Source: Mytilus edulis | Lineage: Eukaryota | DNA length: 64,000 nucleotides | Direction of reading: 5' to 3' | Assembly (NCBI RefSeq): GCF_963676685.1 | Contig: NC_092353.1 | Span: 20,307,307-20,371,306 of the forward strand | Shown: piece after piece, positions 32,206 to 53,945 of the stretch | Position numbering within the stretch: position 1 is the first letter of the stretch | Layout: the number at the start of each line of letters is the position of its first letter | The notes under the pieces: generated by a model | What the model was told of the DNA's origin: nothing | The model's input: the letters and a program-made list of their open reading frames with translations, nothing else | Database searches by the model: none | Made by a program: the position numbers and the translations under genes

Positions 32206-33523
32206 CAAATCATGTTTGGTGTATCTCCTGCCATATCAGTATTATTTTGCTTTTATCTATAAATTGCAAAATGGAAAATTTTGAAGAGAAAAAAAAAAAT
32301 ATGAAAAAAAATTCCTACCCAAATTTTATTCAATTCCCTTTGAGTAATTATCAAACTCTATCCCAGCTTTCCCTTTAAGGTATGGTACATTGCAGTACAA
32401 TTTCAGAGAAATCCATACACTTGAACACAAGTTAATGTCTAGAAACTAGAAAAATGCTTGTTAACCAAAATAAAATGACATTAATTTTTTGTGGGTACTA
32501 ATTTTCGTGGATTGAGAAAACTTGCATTTCAGTGGATATTTGGTTTCATGGTTTTGTCAATGTCTGTATACAATCCTATACATATAAACTTTCTCATTGG
32601 TTGAATATTTAAATTTGTCAGTTTCACCTTTACCCACAAAACCCATGAAAAGTGGTATCCAACACATAACACAAATGTAATAATGAATACACAGTATTTC
32701 CCTATACTTACATCCTCTTTTTAAACTTTCTAGACCTTAGATTATCAAATAATGAAGCATGGGAATCAACCTAGAAAATTAAGAAATCATTTTTAAAATT
32801 CTCACAAGGTCTGAGGTTTTTCATCTAACAAAGTGTATCTAAATTTTTGCCCTATACATATAGCATTGCCTGCCAAGTTATATAACATATACATCTCGAT
32901 CTATGTGCCTGTCATTTATTCTGTTGATATTACTGAATAGCTTTGTTCTTTTACAGTTGTGGCATAATCATTAATTTGCACAGAATTTCCAATAAACCAG
33001 TGCTATTAAGGTCTTAAACTTGCAGTGAGGTGAGAGCTTTTGCTCCATGTTAAACAATGTGACTGAAATAAGTTTTAACAAGAGTTTTTATTGTTCACTG
33101 ACTTCTTCGCATCTACCAGTTCAAATCTATTCAGCATATCACCACAATGGCAGGGATTCAAAGTTTACTGAACAGTCGTTTGCCAAAGTATATAAATGCT
33201 GACATATATAGCATAGTAGTTGTTCGACTTTGCTATTACATAAATCGATGTGAAAAAGAACAAGAAGTTTAGATTTCCTTTTAAAATAGAATGCACTAAC
33301 AACCCAAGGAATCATAATATCATATATATATATATATATCTGATGGTGGAAATGAGATTTTGCAAATCGTAAAAACAACACTTTTAAACTAAGTTTTCAA
33401 AATCGGAACTATTTGTTTGATATTATCTAAAATTAACTTTTTCATTTGTCATTATCTATAATTGGTTCAAATTAATCATTCATTTGACATTCATATTATA
33501 AGTACAGGTATCTTTTTACTTAC

Positions 33524-34875
33524 CATTAATTCTTCAGTATTACTTTGTTTTTGAACGCTATCAGCAGAATCTAATTGGCTAGGTATATCCTTCTCAATTA
33601 TTGATAGTGATTTTGTTATACTCCCAAAAACACGAGCAGATCCTCCACGAGCAGTTAAACCACTCATTTTTTTAGCTGAAGATCCATCTGAAATGTCTGA
33701 AAGTAATTGTGCTCTTGGTGATGTTGATGAAAATACTTGATTTTGTTTTAGATGAGAAGAACTACTCTTTGCCATTTCCCTAGGACCAAATGGCGGTGGT
33801 TGTATTCCTCTTGGAGGACCATACCTTGGTTCCGGTAGCATACGATTCAATTCTTTTAGTAGTGAAGGTGGTGGTGCACCAGACACTAAAGAGTCCATTT
33901 GTTTTGATGACTGCAAAGGTGGTTGTGGTTTTCCCTGTTGATGCAGTGGTGGCATTCCTGATGCTGAGCATTTAATTTTAACTGGCATTCCTCTTGATTG
34001 TAGGGATGTTGGAGGTGGCATTCCGCTTGATGGAAGAGGCGGTGGGGGTGGTGGTATCCCTCTTGATGATGCTAGAGGGGGTGGAGGAGGGGGTATTCCA
34101 AACTGTGGACCAACCTGTTGTGGCAACAGTTCATCACATATTTCTTCTGGAAATGCTAATGCAGCAGACATTGGAGAGTACATTTGTATTGATGGAGGAT
34201 CTGACTTTACTGATGAAGAGCCAACAACATGCATTCCTCCTGGTGGTTGTGGAGGTGGCATTCCTCTCGATGGATCATCAAATAACCTTTTTGAACGAAA
34301 TGTTGATGGTTTAATTTGCCATTTGTCTGACATTGCTCTTGTTGATTGTAGGGGTGCTGGAGGTGGCATTCCTCTTGTTGATGGTAGAGGGGGTGGAGGA
34401 GGTGGCAAAGCGTCATAAACTATTTCTTCAGGAAATGCTTGTGCAGGAGACATTGGAAAGTACAATTGTGTCGATGGATCAGGTGGTATTACTGATGAAG
34501 ACCCATCAACATGTTTTCCTCTTAGTGGTTGTGACGGTGGCATTCCTCTGGGTGGTTGGGGAGGACGCATTTCTCCTGGTGGCTCATAAGATAACCTTTT
34601 TGAATGAAATGGTGATGCTTTAATTTCCAATTTATCTGACAGAAGTTGCGATGTACTTTGTTGTGTTCCTTTTGATTGAGCATCAGAAATCATTTGGGAT
34701 TGGAATGGTGGTGATGCATCTTGTTGGGTTGGTTGTATTTTTCTTAGTGAACCAGATTTAAGAGAAAGCATGTCTGATAGTGTTTTTAATGCTTGATGTT
34801 TGTCAGGTACACTAGATTCTATTGTATCTTCATCTGAAGATAAGGTTAAAGACCTGCTATATTTCATCAAAGTAT
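33524..34875 (-). CDS. Large exon encoding a proline-rich, FH1-like low-complexity repeat domain (two ~100-aa internal repeats)
   Basis: 465-codon open frame. Acceptor 'ttttgtag|ATACTTTGATG' (exon high end 34875, needs 1 nt from the previous exon). Donor 'GAAGAATTAATG|gtaagt' (exon low end 33524). Motifs 'GIPPPPPPLPSSGMPPP', 'RGMPPPQPP', 'ALPPPPPPLPSTRGMPPPAP'. The plus-strand ORFs 33790-34623 are antisense artefacts of CCN codons. Confidence 0.55.
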
Positions 34876-35689
34876 CTACAAAATGCAAAAATTATTAATC
34901 AACTATTTTTTTCATCCAATATTGTATCTTAATATTTCTAAAAAAAAAATATTATCTTCAACCTTTTCTAGTGTATTCAATAAATATGAGTATATGAATA
35001 AATATTATATGTAGGTTACACCTTTGCATGAATATATAATTCTGACCTCACTTGCAAACACAGGAATAGCAGATGGCTTAACTATAATTTATCAGCCATG
35101 GACTCGGGGATTTTCTTGTACTAGTAATGTTTATCTGTTTTCATAATGCATTTGCATGAAATATTTGCCACTGGATGCTAATCCTTAGTTCATTTAACAA
35201 AGTCAAACATAAATCTGTTGTAGTACATGAGTTTATAATTAGTGTCTTCTTAATATGAGAGTTTTATGGGTTTTTTTCTTATAAAATTGTTCTTGTAGAA
35301 AGTTTCATATCAAAGTGTGTGTTTTTTTTTATCAGATAACTTTTGTCCACCAATGACTTATTTGTCACTCAGATTGAGGTTCTTTTCAAATTAAACATAC
35401 ATTTTTTTCCCTTCCTCATTCTAAATTTTTTTATTGTGATAGTATAGAGATCCCATTTGTTTTGTCAAGTCTAATAGTGAACTACTGTTCATCATTTATG
35501 CCAAAATTTATGACTTGCCAGGCAAATATGAAAATGTTCAACAAAATGATGACAACAGCACAAAATATATTAACTGCAAATTCTCTTATCTCTGTTTTTT
35601 TTGCCTGTTTTTTTAGCACTTTAGTTGTTTTCATGACTATTACTGATCTTTTGACTTAAACCAATTGCAACTAATTTTAACGGTTTAGT

Positions 35690-36335
35690 CCACTGTGTAA
35701 GACTAGTGTGAGAGTTAAACACCACCGTCTAAGACTAGTGTGAGAGTTAAACACCACCGTCTAAGACTAGTGTGAGAGTTAAAACACCACCGTCTAAGAC
35801 TAGTGTGAGAGTTAAACACCACCGTCTAAGACTAGTGTGAGAGTTAAAACACCACCGTCTAAGACTTGTGTGAGAGTTAAACACCACCGTCTAAGACTAG
35901 TGTGAGAGTTAAACACCACCGTCTAAGACTAGTGTGAGAGTTAAACACCACCGTCTAAGACTAGTGTGAGAGTTAAAACACCACCGTCTAAGACTAGTGT
36001 GAGAGTTAAACACCACCGTCTAAGACTAGTGTGAGAGTTAAACACCACCGTCTAAGACTAGTGTGAGAGTTTATCACCACCGTCTAAGACTAGTGTGAGA
36101 GTTAAACACCACCGTCTAAGACTAGTGTGAGAGTTAAACACCACCGTCAAAGACTAGTGTGAGAGTTAAACACCACTGTCTAAGACTAGTGTGAGAGTTA
36201 AACACCACTGTCTAAGACTAGTGTGAGAGTTAAACACCACTGTCTAAGACTAGTGTGAGAGTTAAACACCACTGTCTAAGACTAGAGTGAGAGTTAAACA
36301 CCACTGTCCAAGACTAGTGTGAAAGTTAAGCACTA
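35690..36335. repeat. 32 bp minisatellite, ~20 units, with a variant gradient
   Basis: Unit 'taagactagtgtgagagttaaacaccaccgtc'. The last ~6 units carry accaccgtc -> accactgtc, with occasional 33 bp variants. Confidence 0.9.
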
Positions 36336-36789
36336 ACAAACATGTTTAACCCATCACATTCTTTATGTGCCAGTTCAAAGTCAGGTTGCCTGTTGTTCAG
36401 TGGTTATTAGTTCATATCTTTAATTATTTTTTTCTTTAATTGTTTTGTTTTTAATTAAATCTGTTAGTTTTCTCATTTGAATTGTTTTATATTTTCATGT
36501 CAGACCCCTTATTAAGGATTTGAATGAGTATAATTAAGTGCTTAAATATATTTCCAACCCCTTTGGATGGCTTTTTTTTATTTAGATATTTAGATAATGT
36601 TATGGAGGATTTTAAATCGAATGTCAACATTCCTCAAGGGAAATTTTTCATAAATCAGGCAGCCAGCTATAATGTTTAGCCCTACAACATTCTGTATTTA
36701 TGTGCCTGTCCCTAGTTAATAGCCTGTAATTTAAAGGTTGTCTTTTGTTGCTATGTTAAATACTTGCTCTTCAGTCTTTTTTTTGTGCA

Positions 36790-36975
36790 TTAATCATGCG
36801 GTTAGTTTTCTCGTTTGAATTGTTTTACATTTGTGATATTGGAGCCTCTTATAGCTGACTATATGTGGTATGGGCTTTGCTCATTGTTGAAGGTTGTAAA
36901 GTGACCTATAACTGTTAATTTTCGTATCATTTGGTTGTCTCATTGGCAATCAAACCACATCTTCATCTTTAAAGG
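36790..36975 (+). mobile_element. SINE family copy
   Basis: 'gcggttagttttctcgtttgaattgttttacatttgtgatattggagcctcttatagctgactatatgtggtatgggctttgctcattgttgaaggttgtaaagtgacc...ttggttgtctcattggcaatcaaaccacatct'. Confidence 0.6.
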
Positions 36976-37959
36976 AATGGAATTTTAGGAAATATTTATT
37001 TGTGTTTAGATGGTTTTTCTTTGTAAGTATAATGACATCTTTATTCAATTGTGATTGAACTATCTTCATTGCAGTATTATACAAGGCAAAAGAACCATTC
37101 ATAATAAGCTGTGAAATAAGGGAAATAGGGGATTTTGTTATAGAGAAGGCAAACGTACGCTGCAAAAATCTGAGACATTTAACATTTTCTTTATAGGTTT
37201 TAGAAATTATTTGCTTATTTGAGTATTGGCAAAAGTTTAAATGTCTATTTGGTTCAGATGAAAAGTGTCAGTGGCTTAGTGCTACAACAGAATCAGCAGC
37301 TAAATGATGAAGTACAATTGGGAAGTTGTTTTTTTTTAAATCAGAAATACAATTACCTGCACCTCTCTGCTTTACTTCTTTCTTTTCGAGTTCTTTTCCT
37401 TTAGCTGAAAGACAAAAACAATTATATCATAAAGAGAGAAGCTAAATTCAACAAACTGAATCATAAAAGAATTTGGTACACATCTCAATCAATTATGCTT
37501 AAGAGGGTTTATCCTACTTCATTGATTGATTTTAAATTGGAAGTTTTTAAGATAAAGGTTTAACTACAAGTATCACAGAAACTTTACATTATCAATGATC
37601 TATGTAAATGCAGTCAAGAACCATGCCACATGAATATGCATGTGCACTGTAGAATCGTTCAAAACCTTTAAATAGTAAACCATGAAAATGAGGTGTTTTT
37701 CTCATTTGTGCAGGACATACTTTTGCCTTTATTGAACTTTAATAGATATTAGTTGTCTCTTTGCATATTGGCAATCAAATCACATCTCCATATTTTCATA
37801 TGTATTATATTAAGTGACTTTCATCACAGGATAGATAATAAGAAAAATATATTGTTTATGGTATTATTTCAAAATATTATTTCCTTATCATCTTCTTATC
37901 CCTCTTCTCTTTTGGTGTTAAAGTTACTTTAAACACTTCTGTGCTATTTTGCGGTGGTC

Positions 37960-38170
37960 AGTTTTGTTGGTGAAGGAAGCCTGAGTGCCAAAAGAGAACC
38001 ACGACCTTAGATAGGAAAACTGTCAATTCTAGTCCATTAAGATTATTAGGAAAACTGTCAATTCTAGTCAATAAAGATTATTAGAGTCCTATGCACCTGT
38101 TTAATGCAGGGTTTGAACTTAATACCTCAGTGTTGACTAGCTAGTGATAAAGTAGACCCATTTCCTTATG
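37960..38170 (-). mobile_element. tRNA-derived SINE (box B-like GTTCAAACCCTGC on the minus strand)
   Basis: Reverse complement of 38080-38160 reads 'ggtctactttatcactagctagtcaacactgaggtattaagttcaaaccctgcattaaacaggtgc'. Related to 38740-38920 and to the head at 24881-24990. Confidence 0.4.
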
Positions 38171-38216
38171 ATCAACACAGTATCAAACCGTTATGGTTAA
38201 ACAGAAAGTTTTATAC

Positions 38217-38591
38217 CTGGTTTTCCACAGGCTTCAAATCCAACATATGCATCCTTCTGTCCCATTCCAACCATTACCCCTTGATGTCTAGGTCTACCTA
38301 CAGCTGTTGGGAAATTAGCTCTAGGATGATCATCTCCAGCAAATCCTGCCTTCATCATGAGTGATCCAGCATCTAATACTAATGGCATTATCTGCACATC
38401 TTCATCAGAGCTTGACTTATATTGGCCTTCTTCAGAAATCATACTTGTAGCTTCTTCAAGAATTTCATCTTCCTCAAAATCCTCACATGATGCATATGAA
38501 GAATTAAAGCTAAATAATTCATTAGCATCTTCGTCTGAATCAATAAACCTGGCATAACCCTTTTGTTCTGGTGACATATCAGTTTCAAGAT
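38217..38591 (-). CDS. Actin-like protein exon: acidic N-terminal extension followed by a divergent actin N-terminus
   Basis: '...[62 protein letters not shown]' versus actin '[52 protein letters not shown]'. ATG at 38577; a possible acceptor 'ttattttag|' sits 14 nt upstream (exon high end 38591). Donor 'GGAAAACCAG|gtataa', phase 1 (exon low end 38217). Downstream actin exons not located. Confidence 0.6.
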
Positions 38592-38739
38592 CTAAAATAA
38601 GATATTAACAAGAGGGCACATGCTGTAATATCTAGCCAAAGCTTAAAGTGATGATAATTGAATATTATGATGAAAGTATTTTATGCAAACAGGTATTGCA
38701 TAAATTTAATAGTTTCAAAGACTGATTGGTGTTTAACAC

Positions 38740-38920
38740 ACTATTATGCTATTTTGTAGCAGTTTTTACTGGTGGTGGAAGCCAGAGTGCCTTGAAACAA
38801 CGACATTTTGGTAAAAACTGAAATTAAGATTGCAGTCAAGTGCACCTGCTCCTTGCAGGATTCAAACTCACAACCTCAGTATTGACAGTCTTAGTTATAC
38901 AGTAGTTTGACTACTTAGAC
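38740..38920 (-). mobile_element. tRNA-derived SINE copy
   Basis: Reverse complement reads 'ggtctaagtagtcaaactactgtataactaagactgtcaatactgaggttgtgagtttgaatcctgcaaggagcaggtgcacttgac'. Box B-like 'GAGTTTGAATCCTGC'. Confidence 0.4.
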
Positions 38921-39515
38921 CAGTTAACAGTAAACAGTTAATTTATAAATATGAAAAAAAGTTAAAAAGGCCAAATAAAGTAAGAAGTTGAAGAGCATTG
39001 AGGACCAAAGTTCCTAAAAGTTGTGCCAAATACGGCTAAAATAATCTATTCCTGAAGTAAAAAAACCTTAGTATTTCAAAAATTCTAAATTTATTTTGTA
39101 AACAGTTAATTTATAAATATGACCATATCAATGATAATTCATGTCAACACAGAACTGACTACTGGGCTTATGAAACCCTCGGGGTATTAAAACTCCACCA
39201 GCAGTGGTATTGACCCAGTGGTTGTAAATAAACTCATCAGAGATACCAGATACCAGATAGACTGCTTTATGGAACAGATTTTACTCATCGCCAAAGATTG
39301 CTTTCATCTTTACATTTGGTTTATATGGTTAGATGTCTCATTGGTAATCATAACACATCTGATTCCTTTATACTCTATAAACAATTGTTGGTGCTATCAA
39401 TGTCCAAAGCATGCTTAAGTTTTGATTTTGGTACTTTCTTGCACTTCTGCAACTCTGATGCAGTCAAGACAGTAATTATGGTAACTTTACCGAATTCAAT
39501 AAACTCTAAACTTAC

Positions 39516-39871
39516 CTTCACCTTCAGCAGACCACAGTGTTAAATTATCTCTTAACAACTGCATTTTTACAGTTGAATCTTTATAGCTCTCTTCACTTAA
39601 ACAATCTAGCTCTGATATTGCCTGATCAAATGCTGATTTTGCTATACTACATGTTTTATCTGGGGAGTTGAGAACATCGTGATATAATGCAGACAAACTA
39701 AGTGCTAAATCTAGACATACAGGATGAGTAGGTGGTAAACCTGCAGATGCTGTATCACTTGCAATGTTATATGCAGCTAATTTTTTTTCTGTGGCTTCAT
39801 TTTTATCATTTCCTGTGACAGTTTCATTTAAGAATTGGTAATAGTCTGCTAAGTATTGGTAATAATTTCTC
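39516..39871 (-). CDS. 14-3-3-like protein, C-terminal-half exon
   Basis: 'RNYYQYLADYYQF...[74 protein letters not shown]' versus canonical 14-3-3 'GDYYRYLAEVA...[69 protein letters not shown]'. Acceptor 'cctggaaag|GAGAAATTAT'. A possible donor 'GAAGGTGAAG|gtaagt' (phase 1) sits at 39516; alternatively the frame reads through to a stop at 39496 ('...GKFRVY*'). Confidence 0.7.
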
Positions 39872-40247
39872 CTTTCCTGGAAATTTTGGAAGGTCAAAAT
39901 ATAAAAAAGAAAATGTGGTCTAATTTGCCAATAAGATAACTCTCCACAAGAGACCAAATGACACAGAAATTAACAACACTAAGTGACTGTACAGCCTTCA
40001 ACAAAGCCCATACAGCATATAGGCAGCTATAAAAACAAAGATAATGACAATCTTGAAACACTTTTGGATCAATCAATGATTTTTACTTTATACTTAAGTA
40101 CCTACAGAACAGTCATTCATAAAGTTTTTAGTTAAACTTTAATTCATAGAATAAAAAATATAAGAGGTCAAGAAATTTCCAATAATACATTAGAAGAATT
40201 TAATCTTTGGTCTTTTTAACATTTGAAGAATTTTTTGTGAAACTTAC

Positions 40248-40336
40248 ATTTTATAGTAGAAAACTTTGGATTCTTCACTTGCTGCATAAGGAATTAGTTT
40301 GTTATCTAAAATGTCTAAAATACTATGGCAAATATT
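40248..40336 (-). CDS. 14-3-3-like upstream exon
   Basis: Minus strand reads 'NICHSILDILDNKLIPYAASEESKVFYYK' + 'AT|gtaagt'. Joined to the next exon it gives 'KVFYYKM-RNYYQYLADYY', matching 14-3-3 'KVFYLKMKGDYYRYLAEV' and completing the ATG codon across the junction. The 5' boundary is approximate (acceptor 'gataag|AAT' or 'caataag|AT'). Confidence 0.55.
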
Positions 40337-44029: not shown

Positions 44030-44209
44030 AGATTTATTCCTATACCTTTCCCTTGTTTTCTTTGTGTTCATTTCGGCTATTATTTCGCAAAATTGTTCTT
44101 TTAGATAAGATTTCTCTTCTAAATACATCTGACAACAAGTTTCTCTGTTCAGCTGTTAAATCCACATGTGTTGACTCAACCTTATTTATTTGATCCATTA
44201 TTTCTGAAA
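44030..44209 (-). CDS. Candidate distal exon of the VWA5A-like gene (or a separate gene)
   Basis: Acceptor 'ttgttttcag|AAATAATGGATC' gives 'EIMDQINKVESTHVDLTAEQRNLLSDVFRREILSKRTILRNNS...'. Weak similarity to the VWA5A 'LEEIMAAQP' region. Boundaries uncertain. Confidence 0.25.
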
Positions 44210-45096: not shown

Positions 45097-45355
45097 CTAT
45101 CCCATTAAAATCCTGTTCCTCAATCAACTTACCACATCTAAGTAAGTTATGCATAGGAGCGGCTTCTTCCATTCCTACGCAAATCAATTCATCGTAAGAA
45201 TCTCCCATTTCTGCGCCAAAATATGTACTGTTACAGTAAAGATGTTCCTCTTCCCCTTCCCCTTCCCCTTCCCATCCTAAATACTGCAAAGTATCTACAT
45301 CTTCATCAGAAACCAATTCCAGTATTGATGGTTCATCAGCCTCAATCACTTCATC
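45097..45355 (-). CDS. VWA5A-like gene, distal acidic exon (low boundary uncertain)
   Basis: Acceptor 'cttgattaag|GATGAAGTG', phase 0, continuing from exon 46333-46434: '...AVEKREK|DEVIEADEPSILELVSDEDVDTLQYLGWEGEGEGEEEHLYCNSTYFGAEMGDSYDELICVGMEEAAPMHNLLRCGKLIEEQDFNG'. Confidence 0.4.
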
Positions 45356-46332: not shown

Positions 46333-46434
46333 CCTTTTCTCTTTTCTCCACAGCTATGAAACTTGTCAGCTGAGTGACTATAGAGTATTTCTTACTCAGT
46401 TCTATTATATAGTCTTTCATGTCCATCTTCTTCA
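46333..46434 (-). CDS. VWA5A-like exon
   Basis: 'gtttgcag|TTGAAGAAG...' gives 'LKKMDMKDYIIELSKKYSIVTQLTSFIAVEKREK' + 'AAG|gtaata'. Similar to VWA5A 'KKDALNLSLESGVISSFTAFIAINKE'. Confidence 0.6.
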
Positions 46435-47266
46435 ACTGCAAACAAATCATAAATAATTCTACTTCTTTATCCATAGAAATTACCTTAAATTCAGAAATCA
46501 TTGGGATATTTTTATTATTGCGAAAATGCGACAGGTTTATCATCACAATAATTAAAACTCGCATTTTGTAATTTATTATATGAATCAACTAGGAGTTTTC
46601 TAAATATCTCAAAAATTAAATTGCATTTTATTCTAAAATGACAAAATCACAATAATAAATGCACACAATAATTTCTGAATTTACAGTATATATATATAAT
46701 TCCTCCTAGAGTAATTCAAAAACTGACTCAGTAATTACAGAGATGTCTCAAAATAAAGAGCTTGGATACTAGATGCAATTTTGCAGCTGGTGTTTTAGTT
46801 ATAACATGAACTTTCATTTTCAGCAAATAAGGATGTAAATGTTTAACTGCTATACAAATATGAACCCTGTTTTGTAATAGAATGACATCTTGGGCATGCG
46901 TTTTAACAAGATAAAGATCACAAGGTATCTGTACAGGATGATATCTAACCCTACTCACACACATTTATTGACTCAAAGCCAAATGCTCTAATTCCTGAAT
47001 GCTGTATGATTGGCTAATAGATCATGAGCAGTAGCACATATATGAACTTTGGTAGCAGGGGTTTCAACTAACACTTAGTCTTGTCAGTTTTAAAAGTACT
47101 GCAAATGTTCTCCTCTTTTTATAAAAAATTATTACAACAAAAATGAATGTTGTTGTACTGAAATGTTGTAGTTTTTATTGCAAGAAATTTTGTAAAATTA
47201 GTAACTGTCTCTTATGATTCACATCCAAACTAAAGTTCAGATTCTACTTTATTCATCTAAATTTAC

Positions 47267-47347
47267 CTGATGGTCAATACTGTCTGGGGAGAGTACTCCA
47301 TCTTCCCAGTCTCTGATTATTGCTTTAGCTGTTAGTCTGTGGAGATT
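47267..47347 (-). CDS. VWA5A-like exon
   Basis: 'ttcttgcag|AAT...' gives 'NLHRLTAKAIIRDWEDGVLSPDSIDHQ' + 'CAG|gtaaat'. Similar to VWA5A 'NLTIHRLAAKSLLQTKD'. Confidence 0.6.
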
Positions 47348-47753
47348 CTGCAAGAAAAAAACAACAACATTATCATATCAATCTCAAGAATAAAAGGTGA
47401 TTCTAGGTACATGACAGCATGGCAATAACAAAGAAAAAAGACATCTAGTGGTCAACATGTTGTCTTCAAAACAGTTTAGTATAAAGCTCTGACTTACCCC
47501 CCTAAAGGAACAGTTGTGACAAATATCACTGTAACAATTATATTTTCTCCATTGTTTTCTAAAAAGATTAAACATAAAAATATCAAGTTTATACACATGA
47601 TATTACTAATGTCAGATCTGAAAGTTAGGATTTGTGTTCAAAGTTTCAAAAATCTATATATGCACTTTAAATGTTTTTTAAATGAGGATACTAACCCAAA
47701 GAAAAGTTTAGATAGACTTATATGGCAGTTTTCAGTTGTAAAACTATCCTTAC

Positions 47754-47834
47754 CTGCCCTTGTGTAGTACTGAGCTCAGACGTAGAGACAACTGTAGATA
47801 TTTCTTGGCCACCAATCTCTGCCTTTAAAGTAGC
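47754..47834 (-). CDS. VWA5A-like exon
   Basis: 'ttttatacag|GCT...' gives 'ATLKAEIGGQEISTVVSTSELSTTQGQ' + 'CAG|gtaagg'. Confidence 0.5.
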
Positions 47835-48576
47835 CTGTATAAAAAAACGTAAAACATGGTTTATATGTGTACATATTATATTCATTTGAGGGCAAACCAG
47901 TTACTAAGTATATAAATGACGGAGAACATAACCTATCTTTGATCTTTCACATCATTGTATAAGTTCATGGTATATAACTATATACTAAGGCTTTAAAAAA
48001 CAACCATTTCAAGGGGCATAACTCTAAAATATTGGCAGTCAATATACAAAATGTGCAATAGAATACTGAAGTTAATGGAAAGCTATTTAAAGTTATCATT
48101 TTGGAACTATATATCATGATTTGTGAGAAACAAAATAATAACTTCACCTAAACAAGAAATATATATGTCCATAAAGAATACACTACATATATGTATTGTA
48201 TCAGGGTGATCAATTTACATGTCAAATTTGGTTATATGTCTGCACAAACATTGGAAAATCCTGTTAAGTTATATGTAGTGTTGTTCATGTGCGATCTTTT
48301 AAAAGTTATAATTCTGAAAGTGTTTCAACTTTCCATAATGTAACTTTTGTTAATTCAAACTGATGATTCTTAGCACAAAAAGTTACATTATATTGGCTCC
48401 CAACATAGATATAATAAAAAGGGTGAAAAAAAGGATACTTTGTTCTTTAGAACAAAATAAAAGGTTAATCTAAAAAGAAATCAGTCTGACTTAATGAATA
48501 ATTGTCTGATTTGTCTTTAAGTTTGTTATTTGTTAATGTATAACAAAACAAAATTGTAAAATGTACTTATAATTAC

Positions 48577-48741
48577 CATTTTACAATTGCTGACAAATCC
48601 ATATACCACAAGTCTGGAGCCATTAAACAGAGCTGTGATTTGTTGTGGAGCTTGAACTGGAGGAGGAGTATCAAACTGTTGCCAAGCAACTGATACAGAG
48701 GTCAACACTGGCTGAGAGGTCTTCTGAATTTGGGATTTTAC
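48577..48741 (-). CDS. VWA5A-like exon
   Basis: 'attgcag|GTAAAATCC...' gives 'VKSQIQKTSQPVLTSVSVAWQQFDTPPPVQAPQQITALFNGSRLVVYGFVSNCKM' + 'ATG|gtaatt'. Similar to VWA5A 'RSLQPVVEDVSLSWHLPPG...QTVIFRGQRLISYAQL'. Confidence 0.65.
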
Positions 48742-49039
48742 CTGCAATATTCATACATTATGAATTATAGATCACACAAGTCATGATATTTTTAGATGAC
48801 TTAAATGTCATTATCTTTATTTTTACACTGCGTTTTCAGCTTTCTTATTGAAATCAACTGTAAAAGAGTTCTAATGAAAAATACTATTTTACTGATCTTA
48901 TTTCTTTCTACAGCTTATTGTATCCTCTTTTTAATCAAATAAAACTTTCAATAAATCCCACTTAAAAAAAACATAAAACTCTTCTTCAAACAGAAAAATA
49001 GTTACAAAAAAAAGCTTCTTTAATAAGTTTATTATCTAC

Positions 49040-49139
49040 CTTGTTTTCCCACTTTGACTTTGCATGAGAATCAAAATATTCAAAAGAACCTGCTCCAAGT
49101 CTGGACATAGCCTTCAGCACATGTTTGTTAGCAATGGCA
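49040..49139 (-). CDS. VWA5A-like exon
   Basis: 'ctgtttcag|TGCC...' gives '(S)AIANKHVLKAMSRLGAGSFEYFDSHAKSKWENK' + 'AAG|gtagat'. Similar to VWA5A 'TSLIKGIARASGGTSEFITGKDRMQSKALRTLK'. Confidence 0.65.
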
Positions 49140-49510
49140 CTGAAACAGAACAAGTACCTTCATTTATTTTTTCATTCTCTTTAACAAGCAATTAGTCTTT
49201 ATGACAATAAACTTTTTTTTCTTTTTTAAAAATACATACATGATGAAAATATCCAAATTAAAAAGAAATATACATAGCCTTTAATATATGCTTGTTACCA
49301 TAAGGAACATAAAATGTTTAACCTCCCTTGTTTATGAGAACTATTAAAAAGGGAAAAATGTCATTCTTTTTACATTTCAGCAAGCAACTTTTCATTACGG
49401 TAGTAGATATAAATTTAAGTGCCAATCTGCCTAGGAATAAGGCAGTGGTGCAAACATGACAAACAAAAACCTAAATTATCTTTTAATATAAAAGTTTTAT
49501 CTACAGTTAC

Positions 49511-49698
49511 CTAACACCGAATGTAAAGATTCTTGTGTGCTGACAGTTGTCATGAACAGATTTAAGAGTCGTCTCCTCATTGTTAATATGACCGTCAGAT
49601 AATATAAAGACATTTCTCAATGAGTTCTCCGGCTTTAGGAGGAAGAAACTGTGGAGGGGACGATATACTTCTGTGCTACCCATGTTGGCTTGGATATC
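49511..49698 (-). CDS. VWA5A-like exon (VWA domain, second half)
   Basis: 'tttgtttcag|GATATC...' gives 'DIQANMGSTEVYRPLHSFFLLKPENSLRNVFILSDGHINNEETTLKSVHDNCQHTRIFTFGV' + 'AG|gtaact'. Similar to VWA5A 'ADLGGTEILAPLQNIY...LQLFVFTDGEVTDT...RCFSFGIG'. Confidence 0.7.
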
Positions 49699-50391
49699 CT
49701 GAAACAAAAAATACAGAATTAGAGGGAAACAAGCCAAGGTGTATAGAAAAGGATAAGTAATGAGTATGCTTATACCATTTTTAATCTATAATTTATAAAG
49801 ATACTTATACTAATGTTAGATGAAGAAGTCTCATCAAGAGTTACTGTAAACAACAGATTGTAAGTATTTATAAATGCTACTCACTGAATATGAAAAATTT
49901 TTCAATATACAGTACTAGTGTAATCTGTGTTATCCGAAACATTTGGGGACCAGAAAAAAATGTCGGATTGAGCAGGGTGTCGGAATACTCAGTTTTTTTC
50001 TGCAAGGATAGGAATATATTGGGACCATGAAAATGTGTCAGTTAATGCAGGATGTTGGAATACTCAGGTGTGGGATTAGTCAGGTTACACTGTATATACA
50101 TTATTTGATTGATTGATTGTAGGTTGCTTAACAACGAGTGGCAAATATTTCATGCATATCCAGGACGCTTAAACATAAATGAAAAGAAAATTACAAATAA
50201 AAATTTTACACAGAAAGTATATGAGACTTGTTCATCACATTTTAACATTTTTTTTATTTTGCCTTCCCACCAAAAAAAGTTCAGAAACTCTACGCTACCT
50301 CTTTCAATCTGTTTTACATGAGAGGCTGCACGTCAAATTTTAGTGCCCTTGATATAATGCATATTGAACTGAGTTTGAAATTTAAACATAC

Positions 50392-50465
50392 CTTAACAAA
50401 TTGCTCAGCAAATTTCAGCGTTGACTTGGACTTTTTCTGTCCTGCAGGAAATAATTCTCTGTAAC
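50392..50465 (-). CDS. VWA5A-like small exon
   Basis: 'tttaaacag|GTTACAG...' gives '(C)YRELFPAGQKKSKSTLKFAEQFVK' + 'AAG|gtatgt'. Similar to VWA5A 'SYEACFPESVKYTQQTMEEALGRVK'. Bridges the flanking exons with consistent phase. Confidence 0.6.
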
Positions 50466-50795
50466 CTGTTTAAAAGGACAGTTTATAATTACATGTGAAA
50501 CTTTATAGACATTGTTGTTACATATATTGTAAATTAATACTAAGGAACAGTTACAGATGACATATTCATAAAGGATGATGCATTGTTATAGATATATTTT
50601 TAAAGCTGTGACATAAACCTCTTGCACCTTCTGACATTGACCTCTTGCTACCTATGACATTGACCTCTTGCAACCTTTGACATTGACTTATTGCTTCATT
50701 TGACATTGTCAAGAGTTTCTCAAGCATAAAATGTAAGTAAGGATGATCAAGACAGTCATATTATCATATCTTAAGACATCTACTCAAGTACCTAC

Positions 50796-50982
50796 ATGTG
50801 CCAAATACTACAATGTTAAACAGAGTATGTGCTGACAGATGATTCAGTGTTAGCAGCAAAATTTTCTTAGCTTCCTGCAAAGCTTTCCCCTTCATTGAAT
50901 TTGAAAGGTCAAGGACAAGTATTATCTCTGTTTCATTGTCTTCTGCTGCTTCAAATTCTGGATAAAATGTCAACATGGCTGC
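50796..50982 (-). CDS. VWA5A-like exon (VWA domain start with MIDAS motif)
   Basis: 'cattttttag|GCAGCCATG...' gives 'AAMLTFYPEFEAAEDNETEIILVLDLSNSMKGKALQEAKKILLLTLNHLSAHTLFNIVVFGT' + 'T|gtaggt'. D-x-S-x-S present. Similar to VWA5A 'EFIFLMDRSGSM...AKETLILLLKSLPIGCYFNIYGFGS'. Confidence 0.7.
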
Positions 50983-51315
50983 CTAAAAAATGTGAAAGAT
51001 AGAATGTTTATACCAGCAAGAGTACATAACTCTCATTGTTCCTTTTTTTACCCCCTATATAATTGTTGAAAGGTTACAAAGTATGTTCTCTATATAAAAT
51101 TTAGATAAAAAAAAATTTAACAAAATTTGGTTCTGACAATTCACATAAGTAGTTAAAAAGACCATACTTTTTTTTTATCATATGTTTGAAATTATTTAAA
51201 ATGGATATTATAATTTATAATTAATGTTTGGCAGTGAATTGACCTTGAAAAAGTAAATAAAGAAATTGTTTTGCACATACTAAACTAGCTATTTCCCCAT
51301 CTTTTGATAACATAC

Positions 51316-51453
51316 CTCAGTTTGTTTGCCTTCACTATCTACCTCAACCCACATCCTCGGTACATGTATCTCAGCCAGTCCTATCAGTAACTGAAATCCA
51401 TCAGAAATAGTCTGTCCTTCCACCATTGAAACTGTACATCTTGTAGCTGTACT
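51316..51453 (-). CDS. VWA5A-like exon
   Basis: 'tttgtttcag|AGTACAGC...' gives 'STATRCTVSMVEGQTISDGFQLLIGLAEIHVPRMWVEVDSEGKQTE' + 'GAG|gtatgt'. Similar to VWA5A 'SAQVSLAAGHKFDRDVELLIYYNEVHTPSVVLEMG'. Confidence 0.6.
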
Positions 51454-51534
51454 CTGAAACAAAAAAAAAACAAACTTTACTTCATTTCTATATTTTATAT
51501 ATATATATATGCTTACAGAAAATTAATGGGCCCT

Positions 51535-51736
51535 ACTAAAAAGTGCCCGGTAGTGCCCAGTAGAAGAAAAATTGCCCGGGGAAGAAAACTAGAGGCTCTC
51601 AAGAGCCTGTATCGCTCACCTGATTCTACTTGGGTTTTTGAAATCATATAAAAAAATATAAAATTTGGCTAAAAGTGACAACACAACCTCATTTATAAGG
51701 AAAGGAACATGTTTAATTTCATTCAAAAGTCCCCCA
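51535..51736 (+). other. Putative left arm of the family B element preceding the 166 bp satellite
   Basis: 'gtgcccggtagtgcccagtagaagaaaaattgcccggggaagaaaactagaggctctcaagagcct...'. The motif 'gcccggggaagaaaa' recurs in tandem at 53950-54050 and inverted at 54715-54830. Confidence 0.3.
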
Positions 51737-53855: not shown

Positions 53856-53864
53856 AATTGTTAA

Positions 53865-53945
53865 CGACGACGACGACGGACGACGACGACGGACGACAAG
53901 TGGTGAGAAAAGCTCACTTGGCCCTTCGGGCCAGGTGAGCTAGAA
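53865..53945 (+). other. Family B element 3' terminus: (GACGAC)n, 14 bp-stem hairpin 'agctcacttggccc-ttc-gggccaggtgagct', tail 'agaaa'
   Basis: Direct reading. Stem has 1 mismatch. Homologous to 24128-24200. Confidence 0.5.

What the first reader, a model, noticed from the sequence alone, without database searches (positions are those of the whole stretch)
33524..40336. Three consecutive minus-strand exons (14-3-3-like, actin-like, proline-rich FH1-like) have mutually compatible splice phases, suggesting a possible chimeric gene
Three boundaries are direct observations. (1) The 14-3-3-like exon carries a possible phase-1 donor 'GAA G|gtaagt' at 39516; its frame also reads through to a stop 6 codons later, so splicing is optional. 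(2) The actin-like ORF has a consensus acceptor 'ttattttag|' 14 nt upstream of its ATG, preceded by an in-frame TAA. Splicing the 14-3-3 donor to it gives an uninterrupted frame (...[21 protein letters not shown]...). (3) The actin-like exon ends in a phase-1 donor 'CCAG|gtataa' that is in frame with the phase-1 acceptor of the 1.35 kb proline-rich exon (...[19 protein letters not shown]...).

Chance phase agreement is about 1 in 9. The more ordinary readings are three adjacent genes (14-3-3; an actin-like protein with an acidic N-terminal extension; a proline-rich protein), or gene fragments mobilised by the surrounding Helitron-like and other elements. An actin-like fold fused to a polyproline (profilin- or SH3-binding-like) module would be an unusual architecture worth confirming.
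Basis: partly seen in the sequence, partly recalled or inferred. Interest (0 to 1): 0.55.

Follow-up and report, generated by a model that had tools for sequence, protein, structure and literature searches.

The report
Mussel vault-PARP gene's borrowed-fragment linker
The 14-3-3-like, actin-like and proline-rich exons are not three genes or a fresh chimera: they are internal exons of the blue mussel's vault PARP (PARP4) gene, whose linker region has carried fragments of 14-3-3 and actin since early animal evolution.

Summary
There are two corrections: a 48-nt exon lies between the actin-like and proline-rich exons, and the first junction peptide reads ...SAEGE-D-LETD.

The window is Mytilus edulis. 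On the minus strand it holds the 3' two-thirds of PARP4 (vault PARP), in this order:
- VIT and vWA exons (57.4-46.3 kb)
- an acidic exon
- 14-3-3-derived exons
- an exon that holds only actin residues ~5-58
- a 48-nt Lys-rich exon
- the 1.35-kb Pro/Ser-rich disordered exon
- the MVP-interaction-domain exons, ending at 14,839

An annotated M. edulis model (CAG2205451.1) already joins PARP4 to the actin-like and Pro-rich exons. It skips the 14-3-3 exons.

PARP4 orthologues in oysters, a pearl oyster, a hemichordate, a brittle star and lancelets carry the same fragments in the same order: 14-3-3 C-terminal half, then actin N-terminal fragment. Perina et al. (2014) noted this architecture in passing.

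So the transcript is chimeric-looking but real and ancient, and it is not formin-like. Whether the 14-3-3 exons are included in the mussel mRNA remains unproven. The function of the fragments is unknown. One untested idea is that they act as baits at a pathogen interface.

The parts
46334..57455 (-). Upstream PARP4 exons encoding the VIT, vWA and post-vWA (ITIH-like) region: 11 exon matches to residues 708-1150 of CAG2205451.1. The BRCT and PARP catalytic exons lie beyond window position 64000.
   Evidence: tblastn of P0121 against the window. Pfam families of P0121. Orthologue tails align exon by exon.
45133..45355 (-). Acidic exon (DEVIEADEPSILELVSDEDVDTLQYLGWEGEGEGEEE...MHNLLRC), phase 0 to 1, donor TGTG|GTAAGT. 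It holds the PSIxELVxxExVDxLxY(L/M)GWE motif conserved in PARP4 across phyla. A weaker in-frame alternative donor G|GTACCC follows base 45097 and would add GKLIEEQDFNGI (resembles 14-3-3 helix A).
44046..44203 (-). 14-3-3-derived exon 2 (EIMDQINKVESTHVDLTAEQRNLLSDVFRREILSKRTILRNNSRNEHKENKGK), phase 1 to 0, acceptor ttattgttttcag|, donor AAG|gtatag. Its inclusion in mRNA is unresolved.
   Evidence: tblastn with YWHAZ. Pfam 14-3-3 profile positions 15-63. 0/158 nt differences from M. galloprovincialis L011 against 2.8 expected. Coordinates.
40248..40336 (-). 14-3-3-derived exon 3 (NICHSILDILDNKLIPYAASEESKVFYYK-M), phase 0 to 2, weak acceptor ataag|, donor AT|GTAAGT. About 20 residues of helix D are missing before it. 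Its inclusion in mRNA is unresolved.
   Evidence: 0/89 nt differences from M. galloprovincialis L001.
39813..39876 (-). 5' extension of the last 14-3-3 exon (ERRNYYQYLADYYQFLNETVT). It is reachable from exon 2 through acceptor ttccag|GAAAGG (start 39876, phase 0) or from exon 3 through gaaag|G (start 39871, phase 2). Most of it, and both acceptors, are removed by a 63-nt deletion in M. galloprovincialis scaffold KV586961.1.
39516..39812 (-). 14-3-3 C-terminal-half exon (G-NDKNEATEKKLAAYNIASDTASAGLPPTHP...[11 protein letters not shown]), phase 1 to 1 when entered at cacag|GAAATGAT.
   Evidence: Pfam 14-3-3 positions 131-223/223, 106 bits. 61% identical to the Branchiostoma PARP4 module, E=1e-25. 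Same profile boundaries as the Ptychodera and Branchiostoma modules. Acceptor retained in M. galloprovincialis. In frame from the acidic exon.
38217..38591 (-). Actin-fragment exon: an acidic stretch ([25 protein letters not shown]...SSSDEDVQ) followed by actin residues ~5-58 ([58 protein letters not shown]). Phase 1 to 1.
   Evidence: Last ~55 nt of the upstream intron and the acceptor are nearly invariant in three Mytilus species. pN/pS of the actin core is 0.20 against M. coruscus.
37357..37404 (-). 48-nt Lys-rich exon (AKGKELEKKEVKQRGA), phase 1 to 1, acceptor gtctttcag|, donor CAG|gtaatt.
   Evidence: Present in OPL32772.1 (M. galloprovincialis) and CAG2205451.1 (M. edulis).
33524..34875 (-). 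Large Pro/Ser-rich disordered exon (450 codons; P 17.6%, S 16%; internal ~80-residue duplication), phase 1 to 0. By position it is the counterpart of the large disordered exon of vertebrate PARP4.
   Evidence: In-frame indels of 21 and 12 codons and a missing repeat unit of about 41 codons in M. galloprovincialis. No homologue elsewhere.
32712..32770 (-). 59-nt exon (VDSHASLFDNLRSRKFKKR-), phase 0 to 2, donor AT|GTAAGT. If the donor is read through, a stop follows at 32710-32708, as in the 157-aa M. galloprovincialis model.
17657..17769 (-). MVP-interaction-domain exon A (PSTDLADYGIGSTIKPVKTGGTVDKYSMNKIFAIQEE), phase 1 to 0.
17184..17283 (-). MVP-interaction-domain exon B (DGSWKFSQQLCTLLGIEYDACMKILKEAGIKSL), phase 0 to 1.
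   Evidence: phmmer and tblastn against vertebrate PARP4 C-termini
14839..15155 (-). Last coding exon of PARP4 (SKIQEEIMILLATSLTLLVI...LELGHCWGHVAAKMLHVV*), stop TAG at 14841-14839.

Best explanation
The finding lies inside the Mytilus edulis orthologue of PARP4 (vault PARP). The gene runs on the minus strand from beyond position 64000 to its stop at 14839.

The three exons belong to the linker between the ITIH-like (VIT-vWA) region and the C-terminal MVP-interaction domain that docks PARP4 in vault particles.

Most likely mRNA path:
- acidic exon (45355-45133)
- 14-3-3 C-terminal-half exon (39812-39516), possibly with further 14-3-3 exons in some isoforms
- actin-fragment exon (38591-38217)
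- 48-nt exon (37404-37357)
- Pro/Ser-rich exon (34875-33524)
- 59-nt exon (32770-32712)
- about 96 residues of exons I did not locate
- MVP-interaction-domain exons (17769-14839)

What is shown:
- the exons, phases and open frames
- the flanking PARP4 domains
- one public model that joins PARP4 to the actin and Pro-rich exons
- the same 14-3-3-half then actin-fragment order in PARP4 of other phyla

What is inferred:
- that the 14-3-3 exon is spliced into the mussel mRNA
- the function of the fragments

Neither fragment can act as its parent protein.
- The actin piece is about 55 of 375 residues, and Gly15 of the phosphate loop is replaced by Leu.
- The 14-3-3 half lacks the helices that carry the phosphate-binding Lys49, Arg56, Arg127 and Tyr128.

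My best guess at mechanism is that they are displayed interaction or mimicry modules on a flexible tether. They would present the most conserved surfaces of their parents (the actin D-loop segment [16 protein letters not shown] and 14-3-3 helices G-I) to partners that normally recognise actin or 14-3-3.

The confidence of 0.62 is for the whole chain including the 14-3-3 C-half. Membership of the actin, 48-nt and Pro-rich exons in PARP4 alone I put at about 0.85-0.9.
For: Identity of the window.
- It is 99.3% identical over 10 kb to M. edulis CAJPWZ010001022.1 and collinear with it.

Link between PARP4 and the actin and Pro-rich exons.
- An exhaustive HMMER search with the Pro-rich exon found one protein, CAG2205451.1 'PARP2_3_4 [Mytilus edulis]' (1730 aa, 99% identical).
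- Its sequence runs BRCT-PARP-VIT-vWA...MHNLLRC|[12 protein letters not shown]...actin fragment...AKGKELEKKEVKQRGA|DTLMKYSRSL...Pro-rich.
- The next gene model in that assembly starts inside the Pro-rich exon's 3' end and carries PF26156 PARP4_MVP-ID.
- The split between the two models is explained by one extra G in a G-run of that assembly.
- The window and M. galloprovincialis keep the frame open.

MVP-interaction domain in the window.
- Exons at 17.8-14.8 kb assemble into a sequence that aligns across both junctions with vertebrate PARP4 C-termini (E about 1e-10).

Orthologues.
- The actin fragment (Pfam profile ~2-54) sits downstream of vWA in PARP4 of Saccostrea, Pinctada, Magallana, Ptychodera and Amphiura.
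- The 14-3-3 C-half (profile ~124-223) sits downstream of vWA in Ptychodera and Branchiostoma, with a below-threshold match in Amphiura (E=4e-4, 20 bits).
- By eye, degenerate 14-3-3-like stretches also follow the motif in Gigantopelta, Saccoglossus, Liolophura, Ruditapes and Porites. Only Gigantopelta was scored (tblastn E=1.5e-4 against the window's exon).
- It always follows the conserved ...VDxLxYMGWE motif.

Shared derived residues argue for common descent of the modules.
- NF to SL in helix G, and LWSAE.
- GSG to GSL/GSF, and VGDEAQ to VG[FK]EA.G.
- A phase-1 donor sits within one or two codons of the same point of the actin homology in four species.

Frames and conservation in Mytilus.
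- Four in-frame splice paths were verified.
- The phase-1 acceptor of the C-half exon survives a 63-nt deletion in M. galloprovincialis that removes the alternative acceptors.
- The 3' end of the intron before the actin exon is about 96% conserved in M. coruscus, against about 76% in the flanks.

Literature.
- PARP4-like proteins with appended 14-3-3, actin and ubiquitin-related domains were reported by Perina et al. 2014 (PMC4245714).
Against: - No transcript data could be consulted.
- The only Mytilus model that spans the region skips every 14-3-3 exon.
- Neither Mytilus annotation calls a 14-3-3 exon or gene here.
- The C-half acceptor is only moderate (55% pyrimidines).
- M. edulis against M. 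galloprovincialis is too close to show constraint. Noncoding identity is 97-98%, and the C-half exon shows 6/297 mismatches against 8.5 expected.
- The M. coruscus contig shows neither the 14-3-3 exons within 2.9 kb upstream of the actin exon nor the Pro-rich exon within 6.8 kb downstream.
- Oyster PARP4 models have no 14-3-3 module.
- Intron positions in the Ptychodera gene differ from those in Mytilus.
- About 96 residues between 32.7 and 17.8 kb were not located.
- The functional reading (display or mimicry modules) is inference only.
Confidence: 0.62

Rival explanations
1. PARP4 includes the actin-fragment, 48-nt and Pro-rich exons, but all the 14-3-3-derived exons are skipped, exactly as in CAG2205451.1 (45133->38591). 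On this reading they are a decaying relic or a nested 14-3-3-like pseudogene inside a 6.5-kb intron.
For: - The annotated M. edulis model uses this junction, and it is in frame.
- No annotation calls the 14-3-3 exons.
- The reconstructed domain lacks about 20 residues of helix D, and exon 3 has a poor acceptor.
- A 63-nt deletion in one M. galloprovincialis scaffold removes two of the acceptors.
- Oyster PARP4 has lost the module.
- pN/pS of the last exon is 0.69, on 7 changes.
Against: - All 14-3-3 exons keep open frames of 29-118 codons in AT-rich DNA.
- They have splice signals whose phases chain in frame in three different ways into the actin exon.
- The assembled exons match Pfam 14-3-3 over profile positions 13-223 at E=4e-48.
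- The C-half shares derived residues with PARP4 modules of deuterostomes. Persistence since the bilaterian ancestor would need selection.
- Exons 2 and 3 show 0 substitutions in 247 nt against M. galloprovincialis, where about 5.4 are expected. The joint probability is about 0.004.
- In one mollusc and one hemichordate (Gigantopelta, Ptychodera), NCBI-named 'PARP4-like' models place the module in the protein.
Confidence: 0.28
2. There are three or more independent adjacent genes: a divergent 14-3-3 ending at the 39496 stop, a small acidic actin-like protein starting at the ATG at 38577, and a proline-rich protein. The draft M. galloprovincialis annotation partly has this (134-aa 'actin, partial' and a 157-aa protein).
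For: - An ATG with an upstream in-frame stop precedes the actin-like exon and is conserved in three Mytilus species.
- Models OPL32772.1 and CAC5387869.1 start there.
- The 14-3-3 frame reaches a stop 6 codons after the donor.
Against: - The M. galloprovincialis split coincides with an N-gap in that scaffold.
- The actin piece has only one exon, about 55 actin residues, which cannot fold as actin.
- The Pro-rich exon has a phase-1 acceptor and no start of its own.
- The exons are bracketed by PARP4 domains on the same strand.
- The same fragments are internal to PARP4 proteins in five or more other phyla or classes.
Confidence: 0.05
3. The exons are recent gene fragments captured and mobilised by Helitron-like or other transposable elements. 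On this reading they are non-functional pseudo-exons that match phases by chance.
For: - The introns are full of repeats and transposon remnants: a hAT dimerisation-domain ORF at 21022-21651, a reverse-transcriptase-like ORF at 7105-8070, and satellite arrays.
- Fragments of highly expressed genes are typical captured cargo.
Against: - The same two fragments, with the same boundaries and order, occur in PARP4 of molluscs, hemichordates, echinoderms and cephalochordates.
- The literature also reports them in amoebae, Capsaspora and choanoflagellates.
- The actin core is under purifying selection between M. edulis and M. coruscus: 94% nt identity against about 76% in the flanks, pN/pS 0.20.
- Every indel aligned in the Pro-rich exon is in frame.
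Confidence: 0.03

Closest known systems
Vertebrate PARP4 / vPARP (human Q9UKK3): BRCT, WGR-HD-ART, ITIH-like (VIT-vWA), disordered linker, MVP-interaction domain
   Same: - Same domain order.
- The VIT/vWA exons in the window are 41-45% identical to fish and bird PARP4.
- The C-terminal helical MVP-interaction domain is recognisable.
- A single very large disordered exon sits between the ITIH-like region and the MVP-interaction domain. In primates, bats and birds that exon is under recurrent positive selection and has been proposed as a host-pathogen interface (Daugherty et al. 2014, PMC4038475; Suskiewicz et al. 2023, PMC10450202).
   Different: - The listed vertebrate PARP4 proteins show no 14-3-3 or actin Pfam hit.
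- The mussel Pro-rich exon has no detectable sequence similarity to any vertebrate or invertebrate PARP4 linker.
- Vault association of the mussel protein is untested.
PARP4-like proteins with appended 14-3-3, actin or ubiquitin-related domains (Perina et al. 2014, DNA Repair 23:4; PMC4245714)
   Same: - That survey lists VIT-vWA PARP4-like proteins with a C-terminal 14-3-3 domain in amoebae, Capsaspora, lancelet and sea urchin.
- It adds 'additional domain at C-terminus ... e.g. actin'.
- The mussel locus encodes the same two additions, in the same order as Ptychodera and Amphiura.
   Different: - The paper gives domain cartoons only. It does not note that the additions are fragments (14-3-3 helices ~F-I; actin residues ~5-58), does not discuss molluscs, and proposes only loose links to signalling and the cytoskeleton.
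- Mytilus is unusual in still having recognisable N-terminal-half 14-3-3 exons in the intron.
Integrated decoy/bait domains of plant NLR immune receptors, and tripwire regions of mammalian NLRP1/CARD8 (comparison from my own knowledge)
   Same: - It works like these only in the speculative reading: fragments of unrelated host proteins embedded in a protein suspected of immune function.
- There is lineage-specific turnover of which host fragment is present. Across PARP4 orthologues I saw actin, 14-3-3, ubiquitin, calmodulin-like EF-hands, the HSP70 substrate-binding domain, synaptobrevin and the ribosomal P-stalk tail.
   Different: - There is no evidence here that any pathogen factor binds or modifies the PARP4 fragments.
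- PARP4 is not an NLR.
- The 14-3-3 and actin fragments are ancient and conserved rather than recently acquired.
Formin FH1 and WASP/WIP proline-rich plus WH2 modules
   Same: - Runs such as GIPPPPPPLASSRGIPPPPPPLPSSGMPPP resemble profilin- or SH3-binding polyproline.
- RAQLLSDISDGSSAKKM resembles a WH2 motif by eye.
   Different: - There is no FH2, WH2 or any other Pfam hit in the exon even at E<=1.
- No homologue was found in 1.84 billion representative proteins other than the mussel's own PARP4.
- The resemblance is compositional.

Membership tests
PARP4 / vault PARP (PARP clade 5) | N-terminal BRCT plus PARP (ART) catalytic domain | tested here: met
   These exons are not inside the window; they lie beyond 64000. 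They are present in the collinear M. edulis gene model CAG2205451.1, whose residues 708-1730 map onto the window. The catalytic residues were not inspected.
PARP4 / vault PARP (PARP clade 5) | Central VIT + vWA (ITIH-like) region | tested here: met
   Window exons 57455-46334 match P0121 residues 708-1150. They also match the VIT/vWA regions of more than 100 PARP4 orthologues (E down to 0).
PARP4 / vault PARP (PARP clade 5) | C-terminal MVP-interaction domain (PF26156) | tested here: met
   The M. edulis model downstream of the Pro-rich exon carries PF26156. Window exons 17769-14839 align with vertebrate PARP4 C-termini across two splice junctions. The local Pfam copy lacks PF26156, so no direct HMM score was obtained.
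PARP4 / vault PARP (PARP clade 5) | Physical association with vault particles / MVP | not testable with these tools
   Needs biochemistry.
PARP4-like with appended 14-3-3 and actin (Perina et al. 2014) | 14-3-3-derived segment downstream of vWA, in the same reading frame | tested here: inconclusive
   The exon is present, open and phase-compatible, and homologous to the modules of other phyla. Its inclusion in the mussel mRNA is not shown, and the annotated model skips it.
PARP4-like with appended 14-3-3 and actin (Perina et al. 2014) | Actin-derived segment downstream of vWA, in the same reading frame | tested here: met
   It is included in CAG2205451.1. Pfam Actin gives 40 bits, above the 27-bit cut-off. 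Homologous modules occur in oyster, pearl-oyster, hemichordate and brittle-star PARP4.
Actin / Arp superfamily | Complete four-subdomain actin fold (~375 residues) with nucleotide-binding loops | tested here: not met
   Only actin residues ~5-58 are present. No further actin exon is found anywhere in the 64-kb window. Pfam covers profile positions 4-61 of 410. Gly15 of the first phosphate loop is Leu.
14-3-3 family | Nine-helix fold with phosphopeptide-binding Lys49/Arg56/Arg127/Tyr128 | tested here: not met
   The C-half exon covers only profile positions 131-223. The longest in-frame assembly covers 13-223, but it lacks about 20 residues of helix D and has Gln at the Arg127 position (YYQY for YYRY).
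Formin (FH1-FH2) or WH2-containing actin nucleators | FH2 domain or a WH2 motif detectable next to the polyproline region | tested here: not met
   No Pfam hit other than Actin in the 607-residue conceptual product at E<=1.

The most novel reading that the evidence does not exclude
The PARP4 linker may be an array of host-protein baits.

Across animals the stretch between the vWA domain and the C-terminus of the PARP4 models (before the vault-docking domain where the model includes one) carries fragments or copies of abundant cytosolic proteins. In the orthologues examined here I saw:
- 14-3-3 C-terminal half
- actin D-loop segment
- ubiquitin
- calmodulin
- HSP70 substrate-binding domain
- synaptobrevin
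- ribosomal P-stalk tail motif

From general knowledge, most of these are well-known cofactors, docking sites or substrates of bacterial toxins and effectors:
- 14-3-3 for ExoS/ExoT
- actin for ExoY, YopO and actin-modifying toxins
- calmodulin for CyaA and edema factor
- ubiquitin for ExoU
- P-stalk for ribosome-inactivating proteins
- synaptobrevin for clostridial proteases

If so, vault PARP would use these mimics to capture effectors inside vaults or to report their presence. The mussel exons in this finding would be two such baits plus the fast-evolving disordered interface. This would extend to invertebrates the proposal that the mammalian PARP4 linker is a pathogen interface (Daugherty et al. 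2014).

Nothing in my evidence excludes this, and nothing tests it. Some of the extra domains in non-RefSeq models could be annotation fusions.
Probability: 0.12. Interest if true: 0.85.

Novelty: new member of a known kind. Interest (0 to 1): 0.45.

Why it matters
There are three reasons.

1. Annotation. Public Mytilus annotations break this gene into pieces.
   - M. galloprovincialis has an 'actin, partial' model and a 157-aa orphan.
   - M. edulis has a 1730-aa PARP model with a frameshifted tail and a separate 340-aa MVP-interaction-domain model.
   - M. galloprovincialis (a second assembly) has a PARP model ending in an unrelated exon.
   - The window gives a continuous open frame and a corrected structure.

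2. Deep conservation of an odd architecture. The function of vaults and of PARP4 is a long-standing open question. This locus shows that the 14-3-3-half plus actin-fragment architecture is present in a mollusc. The actin D-loop segment ([16 protein letters not shown]) is kept identical to real actin in nearly all the modules compared, although the rest of the actin fold is gone. That pattern argues that the fragment still meets partners that recognise actin.

3. A testable lead. The linker is the part of PARP4 already suspected to face pathogens. A catalogue of what different animals have inserted there makes a bait or mimicry hypothesis directly testable.

Tried and rejected
- **Word-indexed protein search with the whole Pro-rich exon.** No hits. 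The same tool also missed CAG2205451.1, so its negatives are unreliable here. The exhaustive search found the protein.
- **Pfam scan of minus-strand ORFs of 35 aa or more across 32.7-22.5 kb plus selected ORFs at 18.4-14.8 kb, looking for the MVP-interaction domain.** Nothing found. The local Pfam copy evidently lacks PF26156, because a fish PARP4 flagged with it also gave no hit. I located the domain by eye and confirmed it with phmmer and tblastn against vertebrate PARP4.
- **WH2/FH1 idea for the Pro-rich exon.** No Pfam support. Rejected.
- **Exon versus intron conservation between M. edulis and M. galloprovincialis.** BLAST identities suggested that exons were better conserved. A proper global alignment shows noncoding substitution identity of 97-98%, so the comparison has almost no power. 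Only the actin core (P=0.04) and the combined 14-3-3 exons 2+3 (about 0.004) stand out.
- **M. coruscus contig.** It holds only the actin and 48-nt exons, so it gives no information on the 14-3-3 or Pro-rich exons.
- **Second M. galloprovincialis assembly.** Collinearity ends at window 40389 (structural variant or assembly break), so it was uninformative downstream.
- **Intron positions in the Ptychodera PARP4 gene.** They are not shared with Mytilus, so they do not support the specific 39516 donor.
- **AlphaFold2 on the spliced linker without an alignment.** Mean pLDDT 34.6, uninformative.
- **Search of the window for other modules (ubiquitin, EF-hand, HSP70, synaptobrevin, P-stalk motif).** None found.
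- **Helitron capture.** Rejected on deep conservation.

Full report
**Observation**

- 14-3-3 donor: GAAG|GTAAGT, last exon base 39516, phase 1, with a stop six codons further on.
- Actin-like acceptor: ttattttag|A, exon start 38591, 14 nt before the ATG, behind an in-frame TAA.
- Actin-like donor: CCAG|GTATAA at 38217, phase 1.
- Pro-rich exon: 1352 nt, 34875..33524, phase 1 in, phase 0 out.

tblastn with human beta-actin finds residues 5-64 at 38391-38212 (75% identity, E=3e-22) and no other actin exon in the whole window. Human 14-3-3 zeta finds residues 118-231 at 39864-39523 (E=8e-33), residues 91-121 at 40339-40247, and a weak N-terminal piece near 44.1 kb.

Two details need correcting.
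- The spliced peptide at the first junction is ...SAEGE-D-LETD..., not ...EGEG-DLETD.
- A 48-nt phase-1/phase-1 exon (37404..37357, AKGKELEKKEVKQRGA) lies between the actin-like and Pro-rich exons.

**Organism and existing gene models**

The actin-like ORF's best database matches are:
- 'actin, partial [Mytilus galloprovincialis]' (OPL32772.1), 93% identical. It ends in exactly that 48-nt exon.
- An uncharacterised M. coruscus protein, 78% identical.

The M. galloprovincialis scaffold is collinear with window 42.3-31.2 kb.

A word-indexed search with the Pro-rich exon found nothing. An exhaustive HMMER scan of 1.84 billion representatives found a single protein: CAG2205451.1 'PARP2_3_4 [Mytilus edulis]', 1730 aa, 99% identical. 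Its sequence is a PARP4 (BRCT, PARP, VIT, vWA). It continues ...MHNLLRC|[12 protein letters not shown]... through the actin fragment, the 48-nt exon and the first 317 residues of the Pro-rich exon.

Its locus is 99.3% identical to the window over 10 kb, so the window is M. edulis. Residues 708-1730 of the model map onto window 57455-33783.

Its donor, however, is the one of an acidic exon at 45133, and it skips all the 14-3-3 exons.

**The gene continues beyond the Pro-rich exon**

In the M. edulis assembly the next model begins inside the 3' end of the Pro-rich exon, is 340 aa long, runs for more than 10 kb, and carries PF26156 PARP4_MVP-ID.

The two models are separated only by a frameshift. 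That assembly has GGGG where the window has GGG. The window's frame is also the one kept in M. galloprovincialis.

In the window I found three exons (17769-17657, 17283-17184, 15155-14839, stop TAG). Their joined translation aligns across both junctions with the C-terminal MVP-interaction region of fish and bird PARP4 (phmmer E about 1e-10, for example ...nkifaiqeedgswkfsqqlctllg...ikslaskiqeeimillat...).

The actin-like and Pro-rich exons are therefore internal exons of a PARP4 gene that spans more than 50 kb on the minus strand. About 96 residues between 32.7 and 17.8 kb remain unplaced.

**The same fragments occur in PARP4 of other phyla**

A search with the window's PARP4 region returned PARP4 orthologues whose precomputed Pfam lists contain extra families. 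Scanning them gave coordinates.

| Species | 14-3-3 fragment (Pfam profile positions; residues) | Actin fragment (Pfam profile positions; residues) |
|---|---|---|
| Ptychodera flava | 124-217; 1267-1360 | 7-53; 1401-1452 |
| Amphiura | weak 14-3-3 | 2-40 |
| Branchiostoma | 129-223 | none |
| Saccostrea, Pinctada, Magallana | none | ~2-54 |

In every case the module follows the conserved ...PSIxELVxxExVDxLxYMGWE motif. In the window that motif is in the acidic exon.

By eye, degenerate 14-3-3 C-halves are also visible in Gigantopelta, Saccoglossus, a chiton, a clam and a coral. Only the Gigantopelta one was scored (tblastn E=1.5e-4).

The window's C-half exon covers Pfam profile positions 131-223 (106 bits) and is 61% identical to the Branchiostoma module.

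Shared derived residues point to common descent rather than repeated capture:
- NF to SL in helix G.
- LWTSD to LWSAE, shared with a lancelet.
- GSG to GSL/GSF, and VGDEAQSKRG to VG[FK]EA.G, in the actin modules.

Short contigs from oyster and two unidentified species show a phase-1 donor within one or two codons of the same point of the actin homology.

Perina et al. (2014) already listed PARP4-like proteins with appended 14-3-3, actin and ubiquitin-related domains in amoebae, Capsaspora, a choanoflagellate, lancelet and sea urchin. I found no later paper that interprets them.

**Is the 14-3-3 part spliced in?**

This is the weak point. Four paths are open from the acidic exon through to the 59-nt exon:
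- (i) 45133->39812. The acceptor is cacag|GAAATGAT, phase 1, and it gives only the C-half, as in other phyla.
- (ii) 45133->exon 2 (44203-44046)->39876.
- (iii) exon 2->exon 3 (40336-40248)->39871. The assembled product matches Pfam 14-3-3 over profile positions 13-223 at E=4e-48.
- (iv) Skipping everything, as in the annotated model.

Other combinations hit stops.

A 63-nt deletion in M. galloprovincialis KV586961.1 removes the acceptors needed for (ii) and (iii) but keeps that of (i).

M. edulis and M. galloprovincialis are too similar (97-98% in noncoding DNA) for a test of constraint. Even so, exons 2 and 3 show 0 changes in 247 nt where about 5.4 are expected.

I put inclusion of at least the C-half at roughly 0.6. 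By contrast I put membership of the actin, 48-nt and Pro-rich exons in PARP4 at about 0.85-0.9. The evidence for the latter:
- The acceptor region of the actin exon is almost invariant in three Mytilus species.
- The actin core has pN/pS 0.20 against M. coruscus and 94% nucleotide identity, against about 76% in the flanks.
- The Pro-rich exon differs from M. galloprovincialis by in-frame indels in every aligned stretch.

**What the parts are and how they may work**

The actin piece is about 55 residues (strands of subdomain 1 plus the D-loop), with the phosphate-loop Gly15 replaced. It cannot be an actin or an Arp.

The 14-3-3 C-half lacks the helices that bind phosphopeptides. Even the longest assembly has Gln in place of Arg127.

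The Pro-rich exon has 17.6% Pro and 16% Ser, an internal duplication and copy-number differences between species. It has no homologue outside Mytilus and no FH2 or WH2 signal.

By position (the largest exon, between the ITIH-like region and the MVP-interaction domain) it corresponds to the disordered exon of mammalian PARP4. Daugherty et al. (2014) found that exon under recurrent positive selection and proposed it as a pathogen-recognition surface.

The segment [16 protein letters not shown][AS]YVG is identical to real actin in nearly all the PARP4 actin modules aligned (one oyster model has a single Q-to-R change and the brittle-star model ends within it), although the surrounding fold is gone. 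The simplest inference is that the fragments are displayed on a flexible tether and still meet partners that recognise actin or 14-3-3. This is inference. AlphaFold2 without an alignment was uninformative (pLDDT 34.6).

**A broader pattern seen in passing**

Other PARP4 orthologues carry, in the same linker:
- ubiquitin (many gastropods)
- a near-complete calmodulin directly after the actin fragment (Pinctada)
- an HSP70 substrate-binding fragment (Magallana)
- a synaptobrevin fragment (Saccostrea cucullata)
- ribosomal P-stalk-like tails (Aplysia by Pfam; by eye in Magallana, Tegillarca, Gigantopelta, Holothuria)

Several of these proteins are classic cofactors or targets of bacterial toxins (my own knowledge). 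That suggests a bait-array reading, which I rate as unlikely but not excluded. Some of these models are not RefSeq and could be annotation fusions.

**Verdict**

The 'single transcript' idea is right for the actin and Pro-rich exons and plausible for the 14-3-3 exon. The object is the linker of vault PARP, an ancient and already-recorded (if obscure and unexplained) architecture. It is not a new chimera, a formin-like protein or transposon cargo. It is a new, mis-annotated member of a known kind.

Noticed in passing
window 33936-33938 (G-run in the Pro-rich exon); L003 about 57347: The public M. edulis assembly GCA_905397895.1 has GGGG where the window has GGG. This frameshifts the Pro-rich exon and splits PARP4 into CAG2205451.1 (with a false 51-residue tail) and a separate 340-aa model carrying the MVP-interaction domain.
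   Followed up: yes
window 39842-39904; L001 about 2200: A 63-nt (21-codon) deletion in M. galloprovincialis scaffold KV586961.1 removes the 5' extension of the last 14-3-3 exon and two of its three candidate acceptors. Only the phase-1 acceptor of the C-half exon is left. I cannot tell whether this is an allele or an assembly artefact.
   Followed up: partly
window 40389 and lower coordinates, against L011 50147 onwards: The chromosome-scale M. galloprovincialis assembly GCA_900618805.1 is collinear with the window down to 40389 and then diverges for at least 14 kb. Its PARP model ends in an unrelated 84-residue exon (DYLNILNVIEPRREK...) that is absent from the window. This could be presence/absence variation or an assembly break.
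   Followed up: partly
PARP4 orthologues P0126, P0127, P0125, P0131, P0150, P0128, P0159 (not in the window): The PARP4 linker of other invertebrates holds other host-protein pieces. These are a near-complete calmodulin fused at the actin-exon boundary (Pinctada), an HSP70 substrate-binding fragment (Magallana), a synaptobrevin fragment (Saccostrea), ubiquitin (gastropods), and acidic ...[ML][GSE]F.[LF][FG] motifs like the ribosomal P-stalk tail. None of these occurs in the window.
   Followed up: partly
P0157 (M. edulis, same 5.16-Mb contig as the window's gene): A second M. edulis 'PARP2_3_4' model (775 aa) has partial PARP/VIT/vWA matches and C-terminal EF-hands (UniRef name 'Sulfhydryl light chain'). 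This suggests a nearby PARP4 paralogue with a different appended module, or an annotation fusion.
   Followed up: no
window 35690-36333: A 32-nt tandem repeat (20 copies, 96% matches; unit CCACCGTCTAAGACTAGTGTGAGAGTTAAACA) lies in the intron between the 48-nt and Pro-rich exons. BLAST alignments to M. galloprovincialis stagger across it, so the copy number may differ between the species; I did not count the copies.
   Followed up: no
window 28135-28293, 29795-30485 and 30992-31284: Arrays with a 19-21-nt period are built around the palindrome AAGATATCTT. They occur in both orientations inside a PARP4 intron and create long spurious ORFs (for example 29786-30325).
   Followed up: no
window 40975-41869: Several copies of a ~110-130-nt unit (...GGGGTGGGGATCTCAAC...) lie inside the intron between 14-3-3 exons 2 and 3. 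They give plus-strand ORFs with repeated GLGVGIS motifs. This is probably a SINE-like or satellite repeat.
   Followed up: no
window 21022-21651 (-) and 7105-8070 (-): There are two transposon remnants. One is a hAT-family C-terminal dimerisation domain ORF (Pfam E=6e-19) inside a PARP4 intron. The other is a reverse-transcriptase-like ORF downstream of the gene (RVT_1, E=1.6e-6, just below the Pfam cut-off).
   Followed up: partly
window 45097-45132: Read-through of the strong donor of the acidic exon gives GKLIEEQDFNGI. Together with the preceding HNLLRC, this resembles 14-3-3 helix A at the right spacing from exon 2. The strong donor therefore seems to sit inside an ancestral 14-3-3 first exon. 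The similarity is too short to be significant.
   Followed up: partly
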